Origin: a virus
DNA: 64,000 nucleotides
Reading direction: 5' to 3' (one strand)
IMG/VR virus record: IMGVR_UViG_3300009082_000016
Coordinates: 64,001 to 128,000 of that record
Part shown: positions 9,857 to 56,438 of the stretch, in pieces
Layout: each line of letters starts with the position of its first letter
Numbering within the stretch: position 1 is the stretch's first letter
Translations under genes and position numbers: made by a program
The notes under the pieces: model-generated
What the model was told of the DNA's origin: nothing
Seen by the model: only the letters and a program-made list of their open reading frames with translations
The model's database searches: none

Positions 9857-10253
<397 letters not shown>

Positions 10254-28228: not shown

Positions 28229-28572
28229 CCCTTCTTCTCCAGCTTGTCGATCTCCAGACTCACCACCTTCTCCGGCTCATCGAGCGACTTCTCCAGCTCT
28301 GCGCCAACCTCCTGCAAGTAGCCGGCCAGACGGCGCAGGCGGAGCAGACCGCGCCGCGCTTCGTAGAAGCTCCCACTGGCCGGCACCAGGTACCCGTCCC
28401 GGATGATGGAGATCACCGTGTCGAGATCGAACTCGAACGGGACTTCGCTGTAGCCGAGGTAGCCCTCCATCAGAGCGTACAGCTCGGGGCTGAGTGGGTC
28501 ACGCTCGCCCTGCGCGTTCGCCCGCCAGCTGACCAGCTTCTGAACGAACGCGAATGCCTGCTCACGGGTCAC
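28225..28572 (-). CDS. Hypothetical protein
   Basis: GTG overlapping the upstream stop. Confidence 0.55.
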   Translation of the reverse strand: MTREQAFAFVQKLVSWRANAQGERDPLSPELYALMEGYLGYSEVPFEFDLDTVISIIRDGYLVPASGSFYEARRGLLRLRRLAGYLQEVGAELEKSLDEPEKVVSLEIDKLEKKG

Positions 28573-28793
28573 AGGCCTTCCCCCTCGCGGAACTTCCACT
28601 GCTCGTCTTCGTAGTACCACTCCAGCCAGCGGCCGGAGTCCAGGAAGAAGATCGTCACCCGCTCGTCGTCGACCGGCTCTTTCAGCTTCCGCATGGTGCC
28701 GGCCTCGGTGATCGCAACATCGAAATCGATCACGTCCTTGGAGGCGTGCGGGGTATCCGAGAACGGGTGCCACCGGGTCACGTTGAAGTTCAT
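28569..28793 (-). CDS. Hypothetical protein
   Basis: 74 aa, tightly packed. Confidence 0.55.
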   Translation of the reverse strand: MNFNVTRWHPFSDTPHASKDVIDFDVAITEAGTMRKLKEPVDDERVTIFFLDSGRWLEWYYEDEQWKFREGEGL

Positions 28794-28797
28794 CGCC

Positions 28798-29163
28798 CTA
28801 CTCCCGAATCCACTGCCGGGCGATCTCGCAGAGGGCGATGAACACGGCGTCCTTGTCCCGCTCCAGCTCGCCGAGGTCGGCGTACGGCACGAGGTCCGGG
28901 TGGACCTTCTTCTCCCGGTCGTACTTCTCGCCGTACACCCAGCCCATTGCGAAGTACGACTGCATCCAGCTGCCGTGCAGCTCTTCGGGCGACTTCGACC
29001 GCTGCTCGCCGCACTGCCGCTCGATGACCTTGATGAACTGGTCCTTGAACGGCTGCTCCCGGTCCCGCCAAGCCGACGGGATGACGGGAGCGTGCGCTGC
29101 GATTGCCGCCAGCCGGGCCGCCTCGTAGACGAAGATCGCCCGCTCGACCATCACGTCGCCCAT
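28798..29163 (-). CDS. RyR-domain protein
   Basis: SPEELHGSWM...GWVYGEKYDREKKVHPDLVPYADL...RDKD. Confidence 0.85.
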   Translation of the reverse strand: MGDVMVERAIFVYEAARLAAIAAHAPVIPSAWRDREQPFKDQFIKVIERQCGEQRSKSPEELHGSWMQSYFAMGWVYGEKYDREKKVHPDLVPYADLGELERDKDAVFIALCEIARQWIRE

Positions 29164-29604: not shown

Positions 29605-30177
29605 CTACTCCCCCTTCACCCCGAAGAACTCGCCCAGCCGGCTGAGCACGTCCTTCAGATCCACGATGACCTCCTGCACCGACTCGTCGATCTCGATCTC
29701 CTGCGCCGGCGGCGTGCCCATGCCCTGCGCCTGCGCCAGCAGGGCGAGCTGCTGGAAGCGGGGCGCCAACGACTGGAAGCGGGGCGCCAACGACAGCTTC
29801 GCCTTCACCCGCTGGGTGGCATCGATCATGTAGCCGCCCTTGAGCCGGCTCACGACCGCCAGCCGCTTGTTGCTGTTGTCGAGATTGCCGATGATGCGGC
29901 TCGACGCGAACGGCTCCCGGGACTCGAACTCGCTCAGCAGGTGCGCCAGCATGTTCAGCATCTCGACGCCGCTGCGGGCGACGAACTTGCAGAACCGTAC
30001 GGTAGGTCCTTCGACCATCGGCACCGTCTCGGCGTCGGGCGTCGTCTGCACCACGCCCATCGGCTGCGGCGCTCCCGGCATCTCGACGTCGATCACCCAG
30101 CCGTTCTCGACCTCGCGCACCAGCAGCGTGGTGCTTGGCCCCATGTCCGATCCGATCCCTCTCATCATGGCTCGCAT
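29605..30177 (-). CDS. Hypothetical protein with internal duplication
   Basis: VREVENGWVID / VSRLKGGYMID; exact 21-nt tandem repeat at 29752-29793. Confidence 0.6.
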   Translation of the reverse strand: MRAMMRGIGSDMGPSTTLLVREVENGWVIDVEMPGAPQPMGVVQTTPDAETVPMVEGPTVRFCKFVARSGVEMLNMLAHLLSEFESREPFASSRIIGNLDNSNKRLAVVSRLKGGYMIDATQRVKAKLSLAPRFQSLAPRFQQLALLAQAQGMGTPPAQEIEIDESVQEVIVDLKDVLSRLGEFFGVKGE

Positions 30178-48859: not shown

Positions 48860-49258
48860 CTACTTCTCCGGAAGCTCGAGCCAGCGATGGCAGTGGTTCT
48901 CGACCCAGGTCTCAAACAGGTACCGTTGTGGATCGTCCACCCCGGGCCAGCCCCACGAGGTGATCTCGGCCAGCCGCTTCTCGAGCGACTGGATCTCGTT
49001 CGAGTGCCGGGACATCTCGAGGTGGAAGAACCGGGTCAGCACCTGCCGCTGACCGTTCTCCTGCATTGAGTCCAACCGCTTCAGGTCGTCCACGATGCCC
49101 ACGATGTCCCGCCGATGGGCGCGGATCTGGTGGCGGCACAGCCAGTACTCCAACGCCCGCGGGATCCAATCGGCCATCGTCTGGTCCAGCGGGACACGCC
49201 CGGCAGCCTCACGGACCAGCTCAGCGTAGCGAATCGTCTTCCGTGGCTTCGTGCTCAC
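48860..49258 (-). CDS. Hypothetical protein
   Basis: 132 aa, tightly packed. Confidence 0.55.
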   Translation of the reverse strand: MSTKPRKTIRYAELVREAAGRVPLDQTMADWIPRALEYWLCRHQIRAHRRDIVGIVDDLKRLDSMQENGQRQVLTRFFHLEMSRHSNEIQSLEKRLAEITSWGWPGVDDPQRYLFETWVENHCHRWLELPEK

Positions 49259-50082
49259 TTCACCTTCTCCGTTTCCTCCCCCGTCTCCTTTTCCGTCGCC
49301 TTCAACCGCTCGCGGGCCAGCTCGCGCATCCTGTTCGACAGCGCCCCCTGGTCCGGCGTCGACACCTCATAGGGCAGCCAGTCGCGCTCGATGCGCTTGC
49401 GGAACGACGACCACGTCTCCCGCGTGTACCAGTTGCGCCCCAGCGCCCAGATGCCACCCGGCAGCGTGGTCGTCGGCGTGCTGCCCAGATCGAGGCTGCC
49501 GGCGATGCCAAGCACCACATCGATCGACGCGGCACGCATCTTCACCAGCGTGGTGTCGAGGCAGTGGATCTCCGGGTCGTGGGCTTCGCACTGCTCGGGC
49601 GTCGCCCGCACGTAGTACGCCCGGCACGACGTCGGGCGGGCCTCGTAGATCGAGCACTTCCCATCCTGGAGGAACAGGCAGGGCACCCGCCGCTCGTACC
49701 ACTCGGTGTGCGACACCTTCGCCTGCTCGTCGTGCCGTTGCCGGCACTGCTCCAGGAAGTCGCGCTTGAGCAGGTTGTGGTAGTCCAGGTACGCCGTGGC
49801 GATCAGCGCGTCGAGCGGGGAGACCACCACGGGGATGGTGCAGCAGCTGCCCGTGTGGCAGTCCTTGCAGGCCGGCTTGATGCCCTCCTTCTCGGCCGCT
49901 TCGAGAATCTTCGCGACCAGCTCATCGACGCCCTCGAGCATCACGATCGCCATGGACATCATCTTCCGGAAGGTGAGCGGCCCGCTCTTCCGGACTTCCT
50001 GGACCCCCTTCCGGACGGTCTTGTCCATCCGCTCGAGCTCCTCCTTGGCAATCGCGTCGAGAGTTGCTTGCTCCAATCCCAT
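49255..50082 (-). CDS. YkgJ-family Cys-cluster protein
   Basis: CKDCHTGSCC...PCLFLQDGKCSIYEARPTSCRAY. Confidence 0.85.
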   Translation of the reverse strand: MGLEQATLDAIAKEELERMDKTVRKGVQEVRKSGPLTFRKMMSMAIVMLEGVDELVAKILEAAEKEGIKPACKDCHTGSCCTIPVVVSPLDALIATAYLDYHNLLKRDFLEQCRQRHDEQAKVSHTEWYERRVPCLFLQDGKCSIYEARPTSCRAYYVRATPEQCEAHDPEIHCLDTTLVKMRAASIDVVLGIAGSLDLGSTPTTTLPGGIWALGRNWYTRETWSSFRKRIERDWLPYEVSTPDQGALSNRMRELARERLKATEKETGEETEKVK

Positions 50083-50705
50083 CCCGAAAACCTCCTCTTG
50101 GTCTGCTCCACCCGCGGATACCATGGCTCTACCACTTCTTCCGGGGATCGGCCTTGAGGCCCGTCATCCCGAAGATTCCGTGGGCCTGCACCGTTTGCGG
50201 ACACCAGCGGGTACTGCCCGGTGCCCCAATCGAATCGATCTGCTGGGTGTGGAGCACCCAATGCTGTTCCAGACGCTCGGCGGACACCGTAGTTCTGCAT
50301 CGCACACAGCAACACGGCCGCATCAAGGTAACCGGCGTCAACAGCTGATGCAACCCGGCGTTGTAGAACTCCTGACTGGAGTGCCGAAGTTCCTTGTCGA
50401 TCCCGTCCGACAGGCCCTTTCTTGCCGCCGCCAACGACGCCTCCCCGTCGTCTCTCCCCCCCGTGCGAGCTCCGGAAGTCAGCCCACTTCTTCTTGCCGC
50501 CCAGACGGACAGCAGCTGCAGTCTTCCTACCGCTCGACGCGCAACGACGGCATAGCGACCAGCCCTGCTAAACCTGGTCGCCTCGCGACAGCACCACTCC
50601 ACGGCCGACACGGACCCGTAAACCGTTTCCACCATCGTGTCCGCCGACAGCTGCTGGGTCACCTGCACCAGTCCGTCCTCCCTGGCTTCCTCCGGAGTCA
50701 TGCTC

Positions 50706-51068
50706 TCACCAGGGCTTCCCGGAGCGGCACACCTTCCTTCTATCCCACGGGCGCATGCCGGGCAAGAACTCGGCCCAGGCCACCCGCGGCGGCGCCACGT
50801 GCTTCATGTCGAATGGCGCCTTGCCGATGCGCCGGTCGACCTGCCGCAGGATGCGGGCGATCGTCTCGCGGCTGACGCCCACCATCCGCGCCACCCGACT
50901 CGCCGTCAAGCCGAACATGTAGACGGTGCGGAACACGAACTGCTCCCGCGGCGGCATCGAACAGAGCGCGGCGCAGAGCCCCACCTGGAACTCGAGGGGC
51001 ATGTTCTGGACCCACGGGGCGAGGGAACCACGCCGGCCGCGCTGCTTGGCGCCAAACATGTTCGTCAT
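50706..51068 (-). CDS. Sigma-70 region 4-like HTH protein
   Basis: ALCSMPPREQFVF...GLTASRVARMVGVSRETI. Confidence 0.7.
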   Translation of the reverse strand: MTNMFGAKQRGRRGSLAPWVQNMPLEFQVGLCAALCSMPPREQFVFRTVYMFGLTASRVARMVGVSRETIARILRQVDRRIGKAPFDMKHVAPPRVAWAEFLPGMRPWDRRKVCRSGKPW

Positions 51069-51430
51069 CCTCCACCTGCCAGCTTCTTCCCCTCTTCGCA
51101 GTCGCAGAGGATGTCGTTGGAGATGTGCCCCGTGTCGAGGCACTTCTCGCACTCCATGATCAGGAACTCCTTCCGGCCCCTCACGTCGGCGAGGTAGTCG
51201 GTGACCGCGTCCAGGAAGTTGGTCAGCCCCTCCATGCAGTCGTCATCGTCCTTGCTGAACTGGATCAGCTCCGGCCCCGGCGTCCCGTACTCCACGCCCC
51301 GGGCCATCTGGGCGCGGCGGAACCGGCCCGATAGCTCCAGCAGGCAGAGCCGCTGCTTCTTCCAGAGCTCAGGGTCGAGCTTCTTGAGAATGTCCTCGAT
51401 GGTCGCGAATCCAAGATCTCCACAAGCCAT
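51065..51430 (-). CDS. Hypothetical protein with C-terminal CxxC/CxC
   Basis: AAAGGAG SD; first gene after the RNA array. Confidence 0.65.
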   Translation of the reverse strand: MACGDLGFATIEDILKKLDPELWKKQRLCLLELSGRFRRAQMARGVEYGTPGPELIQFSKDDDDCMEGLTNFLDAVTDYLADVRGRKEFLIMECEKCLDTGHISNDILCDCEEGKKLAGGG

Positions 51431-51448
51431 GTGCTTCTCCTTTCCTAT

Positions 51449-51892
51449 GGTGGCTTCCAGCAGGGACCGGCCGAAGCCGATCCCTGCGACCTGGTGGCGT
51501 CAGTCAGAGGCTAGTCCGATTCCTGTCGCAGCTAGCCGTAACGATCCAGGGCATGCCGGAGTCCCACGTCAGCGGGCCCCTGCTGGAAACCACCTTCTGG
51601 ATCACAGGAGGGACCGGCCGAAGCCGATCCCGCATCCGAGACGCTAACCTTGCTAGCACGGCCACGCCTAAACGTGACTAGTGGAGCCCGTACCAGCCTT
51701 GCCGGAGTCCCACGTCAGCGGGCCCCTCCTGTGATCCAGAACGTCCCCTCCCCGAGGGACCGGCCGAGGTCTAAACCACGGTCGGTCCCGCGGGCTTGCC
51801 GGAACTAGGCGGGCCACACCTGCCCTTGCCTTGTTGAGGCCTTCCCCGAGATGCCGGAGTCCCGCATCAGCGGGCCCCTCGGGGAGGGGACG
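51449..51892 (-). ncRNA. Tandem array of three structured RNA cassettes (candidate guide RNAs, 5-nt-periodic variable cores)
   Basis: Units 51449-51594, 51595-51741, 51742-51892. Each has a unit-specific 17-18 bp closing stem, a shared 5' scaffold GGGGCCCGCTGAYGYGGGACTCCGGCA and a shared 3' hairpin ending GGCCGGTCCC (UUCG loop in two units). Confidence 0.85.
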
Positions 51893-51897
51893 TCGAT

Positions 51898-52530
51898 CTA
51901 CGCGGCCTCTTCCAGGATCCTGTTGAGCCGGTTCCGGATCCGCGTGAGCGCGGTGCGAAGCACGGGCAGCACCGTTCCCAGGAGCTCGGCCGCCCTGCGG
52001 TTGTTCTCGTACTTGTTGAGCAGGCCCTCGATGTCGTCGATGATCTCCCGGAGAAGGAGGGTGCCGGTGTTCCGCCTGCGGAGCCGTTCCACCGTGTGCT
52101 GGTAGGACTTCTTGCTCGTGGCCGAGGTCCGAACCGACACATTGCCGGTGACGACAATCTGGACCTTCTTGATCTTCACGACCCAGGCATAGCCCCGGGC
52201 CATGAGCCGCGCTTCCTGCTTCCACTGCTTCTCGGCCGCCTCGCTCCGGTTGGCCGTGAAGCCGACGGAGAGGTTCTCCTTCACCCACGCGGGGACGGGC
52301 TCACCATCGAATCGGCCGTCGCGCCAGGCCGCCACGATGTGGTCGGTCTCGACGGATCCGTTCGCCTGGGTGTTCAACCAGTCGATCGCCCTTCCGTAGA
52401 GCATAGCCTGCGCGTCGGTGTACACCGGCGTCCGTGACTGGTAACCGACGAGCGTCGCCCCTTCCGGCAGCTGGCCCGGCTGAACGACGTCCTCCTCGTA
52501 GCTGATGATCTCCTTCTTCTCCTGGGCCAT
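51898..52530 (-). CDS. Partner protein of the Cas7-like gene (210 aa)
   Basis: Start overlaps the Cas7-like stop (TGATG); stop is 5 nt before the array; HIVAAWRD...EAAEKQWKQEARLMAR helical motif. Confidence 0.65.
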   Translation of the reverse strand: MAQEKKEIISYEEDVVQPGQLPEGATLVGYQSRTPVYTDAQAMLYGRAIDWLNTQANGSVETDHIVAAWRDGRFDGEPVPAWVKENLSVGFTANRSEAAEKQWKQEARLMARGYAWVVKIKKVQIVVTGNVSVRTSATSKKSYQHTVERLRRRNTGTLLLREIIDDIEGLLNKYENNRRAAELLGTVLPVLRTALTRIRNRLNRILEEAA

Positions 52531-53198
52531 CAGCCTTCCTTCACCAGGCGCTTCGCTCCGGCGATCGTGAAAACGCCGTTGGCCTCGTGGCATCCCCGTC
52601 CCGGGCGCCCCTGACCCAACCCGATGAACTGGCCGGCATGCTGCACGATGCTCGCCAGGAGATCGAGGCTGACGACGTCCGGCTTGTGGATGACCGTCAC
52701 CCTCGTGTACCACGGCGGATTGAAGTGTGGACGGTACACGGTGGCGGGGAAGTGGGTGCGCGTCTCCTCCTTCTTGTCCTTGTTCCCACGGAACACGATG
52801 TCCTTGCTGCACATCTCGATGTCCTCACAGATGATCGGGTACACCCCACTCGGCACGCGAAACAGCCGGATGTTCTCGGCCGGAAGGTGGAGGATCTCCG
52901 TCGCCGCCTGGACGAAGCATCCATGGAACGCACCCGAAGGGATCCCGAACGGGTGCTTCTTGTCCCCCGTCAGATGCAGGCAGCCCTTCGCCTCATCCTT
53001 CGGGTCCAGCTTGGCCGGCTTGGGAGGGTAGGGCTCTCCCTTGCCGCGCTCGCTCATCGCACGCATGAAATCGGCCAGGGCTGCCCGCGGCTTCCCCGGA
53101 ATGAAAGGGGCCTCTCCCACGAGATCGAAGGCGGTATACCAGAGCTCGAGGGGCTTCAACTTGATCTCCACCTCTTCGGCCTGCATCTTCTTCGTCAT
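52530..53198 (-). CDS. Stand-alone Cas7/RAMP-like RNA-binding protein (222 aa)
   Basis: FDLVGEAPF (RAMP beta1), FGIPSGAFHGCFVQAA (IPxxxxKG-like helix), YRPHFNPPW, and C-terminal Gly-rich loop AGQFIGLGQGRPG...NGVF. Confidence 0.7.
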   Translation of the reverse strand: MTKKMQAEEVEIKLKPLELWYTAFDLVGEAPFIPGKPRAALADFMRAMSERGKGEPYPPKPAKLDPKDEAKGCLHLTGDKKHPFGIPSGAFHGCFVQAATEILHLPAENIRLFRVPSGVYPIICEDIEMCSKDIVFRGNKDKKEETRTHFPATVYRPHFNPPWYTRVTVIHKPDVVSLDLLASIVQHAGQFIGLGQGRPGRGCHEANGVFTIAGAKRLVKEG

Positions 53199-53206
53199 GT
53201 CCTCTC

Positions 53207-53491
53207 CTAGTCTTCGAGGTTGGCGATCCAGACGAGGCCATCCTCGAAGTGCTGCTCCCTCGCGATGCGGCAGATCTCCTGCCACACATCCTCGGGAATG
53301 CTGTCACGGTCCGACCCCTCTTCGTGGTCGAACGTAATGAACACGTCGCTGTACTCGCCTGGGACTTCGCCCTTCCGGTGCCACGTCGCGATCGGCTTGC
53401 CGGAGTTGAGCCAGTCCATGAAGTCCTTGCGCTGGTACCACTCGGAGGCGTCGATGCGGAGCACCCGCCCGACATACTTGAACACGGCCAT
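53207..53491 (-). CDS. Hypothetical protein
   Basis: MAVFKY start. Confidence 0.55.
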   Translation of the reverse strand: MAVFKYVGRVLRIDASEWYQRKDFMDWLNSGKPIATWHRKGEVPGEYSDVFITFDHEEGSDRDSIPEDVWQEICRIAREQHFEDGLVWIANLED

Positions 53492-53708
53492 CAGCGATCC
53501 TTCCCGTAGTACTCGAGGCACTCCTTGCACCGCAGGAACCCGGCATCGTCATCCTCCGGGTCGCCCTCGAGCACCGCGCCTCCCTGATCGATCTGGAAGG
53601 CACCGCAGACCGTGTCCTGGTCGTTGGACCCCTCGAACTCGCAGTCCTTGCCGCCGGCGCCGCAGTGCTTCCCCTCGAACCGGATGGTCCGCTTGGTCTC
53701 AATCTCCA

Positions 53709-54077
53709 TTAGCCCTCCTCATGCCACACCACCTTGATGCGGTATGTGGTCCCCTCAGGGGTCTCTGCCTCCAGGAAGGAAGGCCACCCATCGAGGGGCA
53801 CGGACTCGAAAATGAGCCGGCCGTCCAAGCTGATCTCGAAGGAGCCCCAGTAGTTGTGCTGACCCGAGCAGAGTTTGACGGACACGAAGGCCCCATCGTC
53901 CAACCTGACCGCCGGAGCCTCCCGGGTATCATCGTAGTACGCCCGGGTGCTCCCGTCCCTGGGGGCCGGACCCTTCCGCACCCCCTTCAGGTTCTCCGGG
54001 AACACGATGTCGATCAGCTTCTTCCAGGAACTCGGCAGGACAATCTCACCCCGAACGGGCTGGGTCTTCTTGCCCAT
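53709..54077 (-). CDS. Hypothetical protein
   Basis: GGAGG SD, tightly packed. Confidence 0.55.
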   Translation of the reverse strand: MGKKTQPVRGEIVLPSSWKKLIDIVFPENLKGVRKGPAPRDGSTRAYYDDTREAPAVRLDDGAFVSVKLCSGQHNYWGSFEISLDGRLIFESVPLDGWPSFLEAETPEGTTYRIKVVWHEEG

Positions 54078-54736
54078 CAGCCCTCCTCCGCGTCGTCGTG
54101 GATGAAACCGGAGCCGGCCGCCATCCCCAGCGTCACGTGGGCGCCGGAGTCGACCATCGCCCGCATCGCCTGGCCGAGCTCGAAGCTGCGGCGCACGTTG
54201 GCCTTCGCCTTCTCCCGGTCAGGGCCGGGGGAGTGGAACGCGAGCCGGATGTCGACCTCGCCGCTCGTACAGCGAGCACAACAGGCGGGCATCTTCAGCG
54301 TCGGCTCCGGGATGACGTCCAGCAGGAACCAGACGTCGTCCAGGCCCATCCCGTTGAACCCCGCCATGATCAGGGACGAGCCGATGCACTTGAGCTGCGA
54401 CTCGCGGTCAGCCGGGGGGATCGGCGCGGGCTCGGTCCTGTCGACCTTCTTGCCCATCATCTCCTCGAAGTAGCTGTCGGCCATCGCGGCGCCCATCGCC
54501 ACGTTGTCCACCAGCTTCTGCTTCCCCTCGGCGATCGCCGCGGCGGCCTCGCTCTCCAGCTCCACCTCGCGCTCCGCACCGGCACCGTAGAGCACCACGG
54601 TGATCCCGGCGTCCGCCAGGACGCCCTCCCACCGGAGTCCGTCCCTGATGCCTTTCCGCTGGAAGTCGAAGCCACACAGGGCGGCGTGCTCCAGGATCGA
54701 CATCGCCCCCTGCGTCGGGTCCTTCTTCTCCACCAT
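54077..54736 (-). CDS. Hypothetical protein
   Basis: 219 aa, tightly packed. Confidence 0.6.
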   Translation of the reverse strand: MVEKKDPTQGAMSILEHAALCGFDFQRKGIRDGLRWEGVLADAGITVVLYGAGAEREVELESEAAAAIAEGKQKLVDNVAMGAAMADSYFEEMMGKKVDRTEPAPIPPADRESQLKCIGSSLIMAGFNGMGLDDVWFLLDVIPEPTLKMPACCARCTSGEVDIRLAFHSPGPDREKAKANVRRSFELGQAMRAMVDSGAHVTLGMAAGSGFIHDDAEEG

Positions 54737-54938
54737 CAGCCCTCCTCGAACAGCGCCGCGACGTCATCGTGCGCGTTCCGGTCCAGGATCACCTGCTTCC
54801 GGGTCTGCTCTTCGACACGGAGCCGGTAGCCGTAGCCTCCTGCGGCCTCCGCCAGGCTGGCGAAGTCCCGGCAGAGCCCACGAGGCTCTTCCTTCGGCAG
54901 CCACAGGACGAACGTGTGCTTCCACAGCTTCTTCGCCA

Positions 54939-55538
54939 TCAGCCTACCCCCCCTGGCACTACGAAAGTCGGATCGAACAGGGCCAGGTACAGGAACACAG
55001 CGTCCACGATCGGTGCCGCTGTCTTCGGTTCGCGGATGTACCACTCCCAGCCGCAGTAGCCGAGGACGCACAAGCACCCTTCGGCCAGGTCCTTCTTCTC
55101 CAGGTACTCGCTGAACGCGAAGTACTTGCGGTCGATCTCGCCGGTGCGGTTGCTGATCACCCGCACGAGCAGGCCCTCCCAGTGGTCGTGGGTTCCATGC
55201 TCGGACAGCTCGATCACCGCAACGCGGTTGTTGTCCATGGGGATGAAGCCCTGCGGCCCGATCCACATGACGCACCCGGGCCACGGGAACGCCTCCCGCG
55301 TGAACCGCTGGCGTGAGCCTTCGGGTTCCCTCACGGCCCCCTTCTTCTCCTTCACGACCCCCTTCTTCTCCTTCACGAGGTACGACAAGGCCCCGCACTC
55401 GGGGCACTCGCAGGCAGGCACTTCCCCGCCGGGCTCGGTGCGCTGCTCGAGATCGGGGATGACGGCGTTCGCGGGGACATTGAACACCTTGCCACAGTCG
55501 GCGCACTCCGCCCGCTCCGGCTTCTTCTCCTTGCCCAT
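54939..55538 (-). CDS. Hypothetical protein with N-terminal Zn ribbon
   Basis: CADC...CPEC; VKEKKG tandem duplication. Confidence 0.6.
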   Translation of the reverse strand: MGKEKKPERAECADCGKVFNVPANAVIPDLEQRTEPGGEVPACECPECGALSYLVKEKKGVVKEKKGAVREPEGSRQRFTREAFPWPGCVMWIGPQGFIPMDNNRVAVIELSEHGTHDHWEGLLVRVISNRTGEIDRKYFAFSEYLEKKDLAEGCLCVLGYCGWEWYIREPKTAAPIVDAVFLYLALFDPTFVVPGGVG

Positions 55539-56002
55539 CAGCGCACCCCGATCACGGTGAGCAGGCCGAGATCGTCCATGAGGGCAGCCAAGCCCCAGGC
55601 ACTGTCATCGTCGGGCCCGTCCCCGCAGGTCCTCTCCCCCACGAACAGCAGCTGCTGGGACTTGTCGTCCGGGTCGTCCCGGCGAACCATGTCCCGGTAG
55701 TCGCCGTTGGCCCACATGTCGACGAACCGGTCCACGAGCTTGGGCGGCATCTGCTTCACCTTCTCCCGAACTTCCTCCAGCTCATCTGCTTCGGACTTCG
55801 GCCCGATACCGAGAGTCACGTAGCACCGGGCGGCGGAGCTGCTCGTGGCCTTCCCCCACTGGACCAGGAACTCCTTGAACTTCTCCGTCGAACCTCCCAG
55901 GTGCATCCGGAGCTCGGTGTAGAGCTTCTTCGCCTGACGGATCTTCACCCTATGCAGCTTGGCCGGGCCCTTGAGCAGGAACCCGCACAGGTCAGCTCCC
56001 AT
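55538..56002 (-). CDS. Hypothetical protein
   Basis: MGADLCG start, AAGGAG SD. Confidence 0.6.
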   Translation of the reverse strand: MGADLCGFLLKGPAKLHRVKIRQAKKLYTELRMHLGGSTEKFKEFLVQWGKATSSSAARCYVTLGIGPKSEADELEEVREKVKQMPPKLVDRFVDMWANGDYRDMVRRDDPDDKSQQLLFVGERTCGDGPDDDSAWGLAALMDDLGLLTVIGVR

Positions 56003-56003
56003 C

Positions 56004-56438
56004 TCAGTTCTCCTTCCTGCCGAATGCGGCGGTTGCAATCAGGATACCGGTCCCGATCTCGCGGACCTGCATCTGCCAGTGGCCGCGGCCCCACTTCTCC
56101 TTGGCCCGGCCGCGGGCGCCTGCCCAGGCGTGGGCCAGGACCTGGTGGGCCAGGCCGAGACGCCCCTTGTACCGGACGTCCCTCTCATCGATGGCCCAGT
56201 ACTCGATGATGGGCCCGCCGATCGCCTCCTTCAGCGAACAGAGGAAGGGCCCGTAGGTCTCCCCCGGCATCGACCAGAACGCCTCCGCCCCCACGGGCTC
56301 GAGGTCGATGCGCCGCTCCTGCTGCTCCTTCTGCGCGATTTCCGCCCGCTGCGGGCAGGGCACGCTCGGATCCTGCGGCGGGGCGCACTTGTACTGCCCG
56401 TTGTACGGGCAGCCGCTGCACTGCTCCCGCGCTGTCAT
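56004..56438 (-). CDS. Hypothetical protein
   Basis: Cys-rich N-terminus. Confidence 0.5.
   Translation of the reverse strand: MTAREQCSGCPYNGQYKCAPPQDPSVPCPQRAEIAQKEQQERRIDLEPVGAEAFWSMPGETYGPFLCSLKEAIGGPIIEYWAIDERDVRYKGRLGLAHQVLAHAWAGARGRAKEKWGRGHWQMQVREIGTGILIATAAFGRKEN

What the first reader, a model, noticed from the sequence alone, without database searches (positions are those of the whole stretch)
51449..53198. Candidate phage RNA-guided system: stand-alone Cas7/RAMP-like gene, coupled partner gene and tandem non-CRISPR guide-like RNA array
Seen: on the - strand a 222-aa gene (53198-52530) overlaps the start of a 210-aa gene (52530-51898). Five nt after that stop begin three abutting 146-151-nt cassettes, each with a constant scaffold and a different ~65-70-nt core. 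Established: the first protein shows the motif order of RAMP/Cas7 backbone proteins (beta1 xGxxP, IPxxA helix, C-terminal Gly-rich loop), which polymerise along guide RNAs. No cas1/cas2, Cas5/6/8 or nuclease gene and no repeat-spacer CRISPR was recognised in the window. Inference: a minimal programmable ribonucleoprotein, probably a binder or silencer rather than a cutter, used against competing phages or host genes. From memory it resembles recently reported viral Cas7-related systems with GGY-NN repeat RNAs (VIPR-type); I cannot verify that here.
Basis: partly seen in the sequence, partly recalled or inferred. Interest (0 to 1): 0.95.

Follow-up and report, generated by a model that had tools for sequence, protein, structure and literature searches.

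The report
Divergent phage VIPR RNA-guided silencing locus
An uncultured 173-kb phage carries a divergent copy of the recently described VIPR system, made of a small Cas7-like protein, a partner protein and three guide RNAs written in a 5-letter repeat code; here each guide sits inside its own private RNA stem, a layout not seen in 84 related loci.

Summary

- **Partner gene.** It overlaps vipr by one base. It is a remote member of the accessory family (phrog_15946) that follows Vipr genes in other phages (E 2e-6, the only such hit in the genome).
- **Cassettes.** Each of the three has four parts:
  - a private 13-15-bp closing stem, with 10 of 13 aligned pairs compensatory;
  - an invariant 5' hairpin;
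  - a 13-14-unit pentamer tract (G 73%, G 54%, Y 71%, N, N) in phase with that hairpin;
  - a conserved 3' hairpin.
- **Family link.** 74 of 80 homologous viral loci carry GGYNN arrays on the gene strand.

So this is a VIPR locus, published as preprints in 2026, and not a new class. It differs from the described systems in its stem-enclosed cassettes, its degenerate GGY motif, and the loss of three base-reading residues (SUSP1 H17, D177, W178).

No target, no self-target and no close relative was found. The scan's first readers had noted this same stretch in other windows.

The parts
52530..53198 (-). vipr: 222-aa minimal RAMP/Cas7-like protein. It has an RRM core, a thumb beta-hairpin at about residues 127-159 and a G-loop at 193-208.
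51898..52530 (-). vap-like accessory gene, 210 aa, start overlapping the vipr stop by 1 nt (TGATG). It is a remote member of the phrog_15946 family and ends in a long helical hairpin (residues 152-210).
   Evidence: A profile of 51 ORFs that follow vipr in other viral loci hits only this ORF among the 1091 ORFs of the phage, E 1.9e-6. 42 of 43 aligned members match phrog_15946; this protein itself does not reach E 0.001. Model pLDDT 79. No informative fold match.
51743..51891 (-). vrRNA cassette 1. Closing-stem arms 51891-51879 and 51755-51743 (13 bp); 5' hairpin 51878-51856; pentamer tract 51855-51791 (13 units); extended 3' hairpin 51789-51756.
   Evidence: (P 2.9e-6).
51595..51741 (-). vrRNA cassette 2. 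Closing-stem arms 51741-51727 and 51609-51595 (15 bp); 5' hairpin 51726-51704; pentamer tract 51703-51634 (14 units); 3' hairpin with UUCG loop 51631-51610.
   Evidence: (P 1.2e-5).
51449..51594 (-). vrRNA cassette 3. Closing-stem arms 51594-51581 and 51462-51449 (14 bp); 5' hairpin 51580-51558; pentamer tract 51557-51488 (14 units, of which the first 9 keep G1); 3' hairpin with UUCG loop 51484-51463.
   Evidence: (P 8.7e-4).

Best explanation
This is a VIPR (Viral Interference Programmable Repeat) locus of an uncultured 173-kb tailed phage, laid out as vipr, vap and three vrRNA genes.

Shown here:
- The 222-aa protein is a Vipr-family RAMP.
- The partner is a remote homologue of the accessory gene that follows Vipr genes elsewhere.
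- Each RNA cassette carries a 13-14-unit pentamer tract with a degenerate G-g-Y-N-N consensus. The tract starts at an invariant GGC(A) directly after a conserved 5' hairpin and ends at a conserved 3' hairpin.
- The whole cassette is closed by a private 13-15-bp stem.

Inferred from the SUSP1 work (bioRxiv 10.64898/2026.04.26.720920 and .720927):
- The locus is transcribed as part of a long - strand operon.
- Each cassette folds on its own. The private stem keeps neighbouring cassettes from mispairing and probably marks where a double-strand-specific RNase frees the unit.
- One Vipr protomer binds each pentamer. It buries the G-g-Y bases and exposes the 13-14 NN dinucleotides.
- These NN pairs bind a double-stranded DNA target while skipping every third target base, and the bound filament blocks transcription.
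- Neither protein has a recognisable nuclease, so silencing is more likely than cutting.
- The likely targets are competing phages, satellites or prophages in the unknown host.
For: Protein:
- The profile of 54 homologues hits the PDB 36pp_D SUSP1 Vipr protein at E 4.4e-16 over 181 of 212 positions.
- The same profile finds the SUSP1 gene KT454805 28474-29061(-) at E 6e-21.
- A profile built without the query hits only this ORF in the genome, E 9e-37.
- The thumb Arg (SUSP1 R138 = R156 here) and the G-loop Arg (R179 = R198) are conserved.

Family link to arrays:
- 74 of 80 homologous viral loci have (GGYNN)>=4 tracts on the gene strand, usually 0.5-1.5 kb downstream of the gene.
- The G-loop-G relatives L089-L091 also have them.

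Partner: vap-family profile E 1.9e-6, the only significant hit in the phage.

RNA:
- Per-position composition over 41 units is G 0.73, G 0.54, Y 0.71, then near-uniform N N. G1 is 0.89 in the first nine units of each tract.
- The phase is set by the scaffold in all three cassettes.
- Unit numbers of 13-14 fall within the published 9-16.
- The cores alone are no more stable than shuffles (z -1.2, -0.4, +0.2), as expected of a single-stranded guide tract.
- Scaffold and stems are supported by covariation.

Context:
- The phage genome is complete, with terminal repeats.
- There is no Cas1 and no CRISPR array.
- No guide matches the phage's own genome beyond shuffled controls. The preprint reports the same for its systems.
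Against: - Only 12 of 41 units are strict GGY. The genome-wide pentamer score of the tracts (37, 36, 33) lies only just above the background tail (maximum elsewhere 35) when phase and position are not fixed.
- Three SUSP1 base-reading residues are replaced: H17 to G35, D177 to Q196, W178 to G197. The Y-pocket residues E71/M72 become G/A. The code or its strictness may therefore differ.
- The cassettes (146-149 nt) are longer than the published vrRNAs (about 100 nt or less).
- No target with 80% or more NN match was found. The collection searches could only use exact 16-22-base seeds.
- There are no expression or binding data.
- The vap relationship is weak (E 2e-6) and its function is unknown.
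- No promoter or terminator was predicted, so the transcription unit is assumed.
Confidence: 0.85

Rival explanations
1. A decaying or retired VIPR locus. The protein has lost its base-reading residues, the GGY motif has drifted, and the RNAs no longer guide anything.
For: Only 12 of 41 units are strict GGY. The H17, D177 and W178 equivalents are lost. No target was found. The closest homologue is only 35% identical.
Against: Both ORFs are intact and translationally coupled. The 27-nt 5' scaffold differs at only two transitions, one in the loop and one turning G-C into G-U. Three different closing stems are each perfectly paired. The pentamer phase is kept relative to the scaffold in all three cassettes. 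These are signs of continuing selection.
Confidence: 0.07
2. A Vipr-derived RNP with a different output. It might target RNA, follow a different skip rule, or act as a decoy or sponge that interferes with a rival's VIPR or a host's class 1 CRISPR complex, rather than silencing DNA.
For: The recognition residues are altered and the motif is relaxed. The cassette has an unusual 5' hairpin and closing stem not seen in 130 tracts of 84 related loci. The third preprint reports solo vrRNAs used as redirecting decoys.
Against: The locus layout is the same as in canonical VIPR. The thumb Arg and G-loop Arg are conserved. The tracts have the usual number of units, and the NN positions are near-uniform in composition, as expected of guides. 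Nothing positive points to RNA targeting.
Confidence: 0.05
3. The cassettes are structured RNAs unrelated to Vipr (tRNA-like, ribozyme, or processing or regulatory elements of the operon) that lie next to it by chance.
For: Each cassette folds into a multi-branch structure with z -3.9 to -6.7. They sit inside an operon directly before the next gene's ribosome-binding site.
Against: There is no Rfam family at a meaningful score, hammerhead and other ribozymes included, and no tRNA or tmRNA. The cores have no excess structure but do have the pentamer periodicity typical of vrRNAs, in the position where 74 of 80 homologous loci keep their arrays.
Confidence: 0.03

Closest known systems
VIPR systems, reference Escherichia phage SUSP1 (type II): Vipr, Vap1 and vrRNAs. 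Sources: bioRxiv 10.64898/2026.04.26.720920, 10.64898/2026.04.26.720927 and 10.64898/2026.10.15.759431; PDB 36pp.
   Same: - A small stand-alone RAMP of about 200 aa, followed by one accessory gene and then an array of three guide RNAs on the same strand.
- Guides built of 9-16 pentamers with a conserved triplet and a variable NN.
- A conserved structured 3' end.
- Phage-encoded, with no cas genes, no CRISPR array and no self-target.
   Different: - Vipr-family homologues found here are at most 35% identical. The SUSP1 protein is reached only through the family profile.
- The SUSP1 residues H17, D177 and W178 are G, Q and G here.
- The triplet is G 0.73 / G 0.54 / Y 0.71 here, against 0.83 / 0.97 / T 0.93 in two SUSP1 tracts.
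- The tail is a simple hairpin, with no pseudoknot shown.
- Each unit also has a conserved 5' hairpin and a private closing stem.
- The accessory gene is not Vap1: the SUSP1 vap1 does not match the profile, E 0.1.
Uncultured and cultured phage loci pairing phrog_4652 (Vipr) with phrog_15946 (accessory): IMG/VR loci L009-L091, plus the Vipr gene alone in Gordonia, Mycobacterium, Escherichia and Salmonella phages, where it is annotated hypothetical.
   Same: Same protein family, same accessory family, and same order of gene, accessory gene and downstream pentamer array.
   Different: - Those loci have strict GGY runs, some of them hundreds of bases of near-continuous, phase-shifted repeats (L014, L089-L091).
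- None of 130 tracts has flanking inverted repeats longer than 9 nt, the same as the non-cognate control.
- The accessory protein here is 45 aa or more longer and does not reach the PHROG threshold.
Class 1 CRISPR-Cas backbone proteins (Csm3, Cmr4, type VII Cas7, Cas7-11 domains).
   Different: No second RAMP, no Cas1, Cas2, Cas5, Cas6, Cas8 or Cas10, and no repeat-spacer array. The guide is a pentamer code, not a contiguous spacer.

Membership tests
VIPR system | Sequence-family link to an experimentally characterised Vipr. | tested here: met
   The profile of 54 homologues hits PDB 36pp_D 'SUSP1 Vipr protein' at E 4.4e-16 and the KT454805 gene at E 6e-21. A profile without the query hits this ORF at 9e-37. 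The link runs through the family profile; a direct phmmer search found nothing.
VIPR system | Minimal locus of vipr plus one accessory (vap) gene, with no cas genes and no CRISPR array. | tested here: met
   Overlapping two-gene unit. The accessory-family profile scores E 1.9e-6 and is the unique hit. No Cas1. No repeat-spacer array in the 64 kb. No second Vipr or RAMP hit.
VIPR system | vrRNA with 9-16 tandem pentamers, GGY/NN or a related consensus. | tested here: met
   There are 13-14 units per cassette with composition G 0.73, G 0.54, Y 0.71, N, N. Period-5 power is the highest in the window. Anchored P is 3e-6 to 9e-4. The motif is degenerate: the strict (GGYNN)>=4 rule of the preprint would not call these tracts.
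VIPR system | A conserved structured tail 3' of the repeat tract. | tested here: met
   A 9-bp hairpin with UUCG loop in cassettes 2 and 3, and an extended hairpin with the same 3' half in cassette 1. A pseudoknot as in SUSP1 was not shown.
VIPR system | vrRNAs are expressed and co-purify with Vipr; a filament forms with one protomer per repeat. | not testable with these tools
   This needs sRNA-seq, pull-down and EM.
VIPR system | Natural targets that match the NN code with a 1-nt skip (>= 80% NN match), and none in the element's own genome. | tested here: inconclusive
   The own genome shows no match above shuffled controls at skips 0-2; at skip 3 only the array's match to itself stands out. 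Exact 16-22-base seeds in IMG/VR and one in JGI metagenomes gave only chance-level extensions, best 21 of 28. No mismatch-tolerant search of a collection was possible and the host is unknown.
VIPR type I-VII assignment | Position in the Vipr tree, vap family and array architecture as defined in the preprint's supplement. | not testable with these tools
   No supplementary files are held. The vap here is not SUSP1 Vap1. The array is neither hammerhead-interspersed nor a continuous staggered array.
CRISPR-Cas (class 1) | A repeat-spacer array together with adaptation and effector cas genes. | tested here: not met
   No Cas1 in the genome and no CRISPR-like array in the window. Only the Cas7-like fold is shared.

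The most novel reading that the evidence does not exclude
This locus represents an undescribed VIPR variant, in two respects.

- The Vipr has lost the His/Asp pair that reads G1 and the Trp that stacks on G2. It would read a relaxed code (mainly G1 and Y3), possibly with a different pairing or skip geometry.
- Guide maturation would rely on a private closing stem around every vrRNA. This would be a further array architecture beside the simple, staggered, hammerhead-interspersed and single-guide ones named in the preprint.
Probability: 0.35. Interest if true: 0.65.

Novelty: new variant of a known kind. Interest (0 to 1): 0.55.

Why it matters
VIPR is a months-old class of RNA-guided DNA binders that uses a non-contiguous code, and only the SUSP1 and P. 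fulva clade has been dissected.

This member comes from a phage that brings its own RNA polymerase. It keeps the overall layout but loosens the GGY motif, swaps three of the residues that read it, and wraps every guide in its own stem. That makes it a natural experiment on three questions:
- which contacts are needed to decode the repeat;
- how guides are cut out of an operon without ribozymes;
- whether the code can vary.

It also shows that a strict YNNGG search would miss such loci, so VIPR diversity in metagenomic phages is probably under-counted.

Tried and rejected
- **Known RNA families.** An Rfam E-value scan of 51000-52200 gave only a partial hairpin match (BASRCII26, 21 bits against a cut-off of 218) and no ribozyme. 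ARAGORN found no tRNA or tmRNA. I read the conserved CUGAYG as a possible hammerhead core and rejected it: it is the loop of the 5' hairpin, and there is no GAAA box.
- **Pfam, NCBIfam, PADLOC.** Nothing for either protein.
- **Word-based homologue search.** It found only the proteins themselves.
- **Scaffold search.** There were no matches in IMG/VR. The 24 matches in GTDB genomes are all coding sequence (a PLMWDSG or PLMRDSG motif, mostly in actinomycetes) with no cassette around them, so they are chance.
- **Relaxed GGY explained by the G-loop Trp-to-Gly change.** Not supported. L089 and L090 also have Gly there yet carry strict GGYNN arrays. Only this protein also lacks the His and Asp/Glu.
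- **Closing stems as a family trait.** Not found in 130 tracts of 84 loci; the longest flank inverted repeat was 9 nt or less, equal to the control.
- **Targets.** None in the phage itself and none by exact seeds.
- **Vap function.** Foldseek gave nothing below E 0.3. VIA-align matched only the generic C-terminal helical hairpin. The ESM Atlas gave nothing usable.
- **Relatives of a virus record.** They cannot be drawn, so the host stays unknown.
Full report
**What is in the sequence.** On the - strand a 222-aa ORF (53198-52530) ends in TGA. The A of that TGA starts the ATG of a 210-aa ORF (52530-51898). Six bases after the second stop, three abutting cassettes begin: 51891-51743, 51741-51595 and 51594-51449. 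The next gene's ribosome-binding site and ATG (51430) follow 18 nt later. No sigma-70-like promoter or intrinsic terminator is predicted on this strand between 50.9 and 54.2 kb. The neighbours are small, tightly packed - strand ORFs without database matches. The locus therefore looks like part of a long operon. The window is bases 64001-128000 of a complete 172,723-bp IMG/VR phage genome with direct terminal repeats.

**Anatomy of a cassette.** All three cassettes share the same plan.

- *Closing stem.* It is 13, 15 and 14 bp long and its sequence is private to each cassette. In a 13-pair alignment every cell is paired and 10 pairs change on both sides. None of 500 shuffles reaches this, and sliding the partner by 1-3 columns drops pairing to 36-56%. 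Cognate arms pair at -26 to -29 kcal/mol; non-cognate arms pair at -0.1 to -6.6.
- *5' hairpin.* It is 23 nt long: 9 bp, one bulged A and a UGAY loop. It is invariant except for a loop transition and one G-C to G-U change.
- *Variable tract.* It is 65-70 nt long and begins with an invariant GGC(A).
- *3' hairpin.* It has 9 bp and a UUCG loop in cassettes 2 and 3. Cassette 1 has a longer version with the same 3' half.

The scaffold occurs only these three times in the phage. It has no match in IMG/VR. Its 24 matches in GTDB genomes are coding-sequence coincidences. No Rfam family, tRNA or tmRNA explains the cassettes.

**The tract carries a pentamer code.** Read in fives from the invariant GGC, the 41 units have this composition:

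| Position | Composition |
|---|---|
| 1 | G 0.73 (0.89 in the first nine units of each tract) |
| 2 | G 0.54 |
| 3 | pyrimidine 0.71 |
| 4-5 | near-uniform |

- The period-5 G signal of the cores is the strongest of 25,574 windows on both strands of the 64 kb.
- With position and phase fixed by the scaffold, the GGY-type scores have genome-wide empirical P of 2.9e-6, 1.2e-5 and 8.7e-4.
- Without that anchoring the scores (37, 36, 33) only just exceed the background tail, where the maximum elsewhere is 35. The case therefore rests on the shared phase, not on the raw score.
- The cores have no excess secondary structure (z -1.2, -0.4, +0.2). This fits a single-stranded tract.

**The first protein is a Vipr.**

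- An exhaustive HMMER search found 54 homologues of about 200 aa at 24-35% identity. The word-indexed search had found none.
- With that alignment AlphaFold gives a confident model (pLDDT 91.8, pTM 0.85). It has a beta-alpha-beta core, a long beta-hairpin (127-159) with a flexible tip, and a C-terminal glycine-rich loop.
- The family profile hits the solved 'SUSP1 Vipr protein' (PDB 36pp_D) at E 4.4e-16.
- In the SUSP1 genome (KT454805) it picks the 195-aa gene at 28474-29061(-) at E 6e-21. That gene is followed by a 146-aa gene and GGT-NN arrays.
- A profile built without the query finds this ORF alone among the 1091 ORFs of the phage (E 9e-37).

**Homologues carry arrays.** A sub-alignment retrieved 80 viral loci out of at least 584. 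In 74 of them, (GGYNN)>=4 tracts lie on the gene strand: 408 tracts against 2 antisense. Most lie 0-1.5 kb downstream of the gene. Four loci chosen for a G-loop like the query's were also retrieved. Three of them have long strict arrays.

**The second protein is a remote vap.** In 81 of the 84 loci an ORF follows vipr directly, usually 150-170 aa long. Of 57 distinct ones, 51 form one family, which is phrog_15946, of unknown function. A profile of that family hits only the 210-aa ORF in the whole phage (E 1.9e-6, profile positions 14-140 of 157). The SUSP1 Vap1 does not match it, so this is a different accessory family from the characterised type II one. The model (pLDDT 79) shows a mixed alpha/beta middle part and a long C-terminal helical hairpin. 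Fold searches match only that generic hairpin. No nuclease or helicase domain is recognisable, and no function can be assigned.

**What is known, and how this locus compares.** Three bioRxiv preprints from 2026 describe VIPR.

- Vipr is a minimal RAMP, mostly phage-encoded and paired with one vap gene.
- vrRNAs of about 100 nt carry 9-16 YNNGG repeats followed by a conserved tail.
- One Vipr protomer binds each repeat, burying GGY and presenting NN.
- Targets are double-stranded DNA read with one skipped base per unit, and the result is transcriptional silencing of competing phages and satellites.
- Seven types exist, with simple, staggered, hammerhead-interspersed or single-guide arrays and 'related' repeat consensus forms.

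The present locus meets every defining feature that sequence analysis can test (see the membership table). It is therefore a member of a known kind, not a new class.

**What differs.**

1. *Architecture.* The main text of the discovery preprint does not contain the word 'stem'. In 130 tracts from the 84 related loci, the longest inverted repeat between flanks is 9 nt, the same as the non-cognate control. Stem-enclosed cassettes with a conserved 5' hairpin are at least uncommon. The supplementary figures could not be read, so an overlap with a described type cannot be excluded.
2. *Motif.* Only 12 of 41 units are strict GGY. The preprint's rule of four or more YNNGG units would not call these tracts.
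3. *Protein.* Aligned through the profile, SUSP1 H17 and D177 (which read G1) are G35 and Q196 here. W178 (which stacks on G2) is G197, and E71/M72 of the pyrimidine pocket are G/A. R138, R179 and probably K33 are kept. Among nine proteins compared, only this one lacks all of His/Asn, Asp/Glu and Trp at these three positions. I tested whether the Trp-to-Gly change alone explains the loose motif, and it does not: L089 and L090 have Gly there with strict GGY arrays. Why G1 stays the best-kept base while both of its SUSP1-type readers are gone is unexplained.

**How it most likely works.**

- *Shown:* the parts and their arrangement.
- *Inferred from homology:* Vipr polymerises on the tract, starting beside the 5' hairpin and ending at the 3' hairpin. 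The 13-14 exposed NN pairs (26-28 bases of information) bind a DNA target with a gapped register and block transcription.
- *Inferred from anatomy:* the array sits inside an operon and has no ribozymes. The private stems would therefore keep each unit folding on its own and offer a double-stranded cutting site for release. Their different sequences prevent cross-pairing between neighbours.

**Targets.** At skips of 0-2 bases no guide matches the phage's own genome better than NN-order-shuffled controls; at skip 3 the only better match is the array aligning to itself. Collection scans accept only exact patterns. Seeds of 16-22 specified bases from the three guides returned 0, 2, 7 and 12 IMG/VR loci and 1 metagenome locus. 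All had chance-level extension, the best being 21 of 28. This is a weak test. The host is unknown, and relatives cannot be drawn for a virus record.

**Verdict.** The locus is a divergent VIPR system: a new variant of a kind published in 2026. Its value lies in the variant features and in showing that strict-motif searches miss such loci. Confidence that it is a VIPR-family locus is high (about 0.85 for the full working model). The mechanism of guide release, the exact code and the targets remain open.

Noticed in passing
window 9857-10253: An earlier first-reader note claims a phage-encoded tmRNA here. ARAGORN run over the whole window reported no tRNA or tmRNA gene.
   Followed up: partly
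window 55327-55368 and 29752-29793: There are two tandem 21-nt duplications, one exact (29752-29793) and one 90% identical. The first-listed pair (55327-55368) lies inside the - strand ORF 54939-55538, where it encodes a repeated KEKKG-V/A-V heptad.
   Followed up: no
phage records such as MN234179 (Gordonia phage Pipp) 32465-33088 and NC_031262 (Mycobacterium phage Brocalys) 32903-33478: Vipr-family genes occur in 157 cultured phage records (Escherichia 77, Mycobacterium 29, Salmonella 17, Gordonia 8 and others). Every record listed annotates the gene as a hypothetical protein.
   Followed up: partly
L014:3655-6313 (IMGVR_UViG_3300037606_000121): About 2.7 kb downstream of a Vipr gene is almost entirely GGYNN repeats: 33 tracts in three blocks, broken every 30-90 nt by 4-nt phase steps. 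This is probably the 'staggered' array type on a very large scale.
   Followed up: no
window 48860-56038, - strand: A run of at least a dozen small, tightly spaced or overlapping - strand ORFs surrounds the locus. The seven of them scanned had no significant PHROG match, and the two also scanned against Pfam had none there. No promoter or terminator was predicted on that strand in the 3.3 kb examined.
   Followed up: partly
cassette scaffolds, e.g. window 51704-51726 and 51610-51631: The 3' half of the 5' hairpin (GGGACUCCGGC) resembles the 5' half of the 3' hairpin (GGGAUCGGC). Both can pair with GCCGGUCCC, so an alternative long-range pairing that loops out the tract is conceivable. This was not tested.
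   Followed up: no
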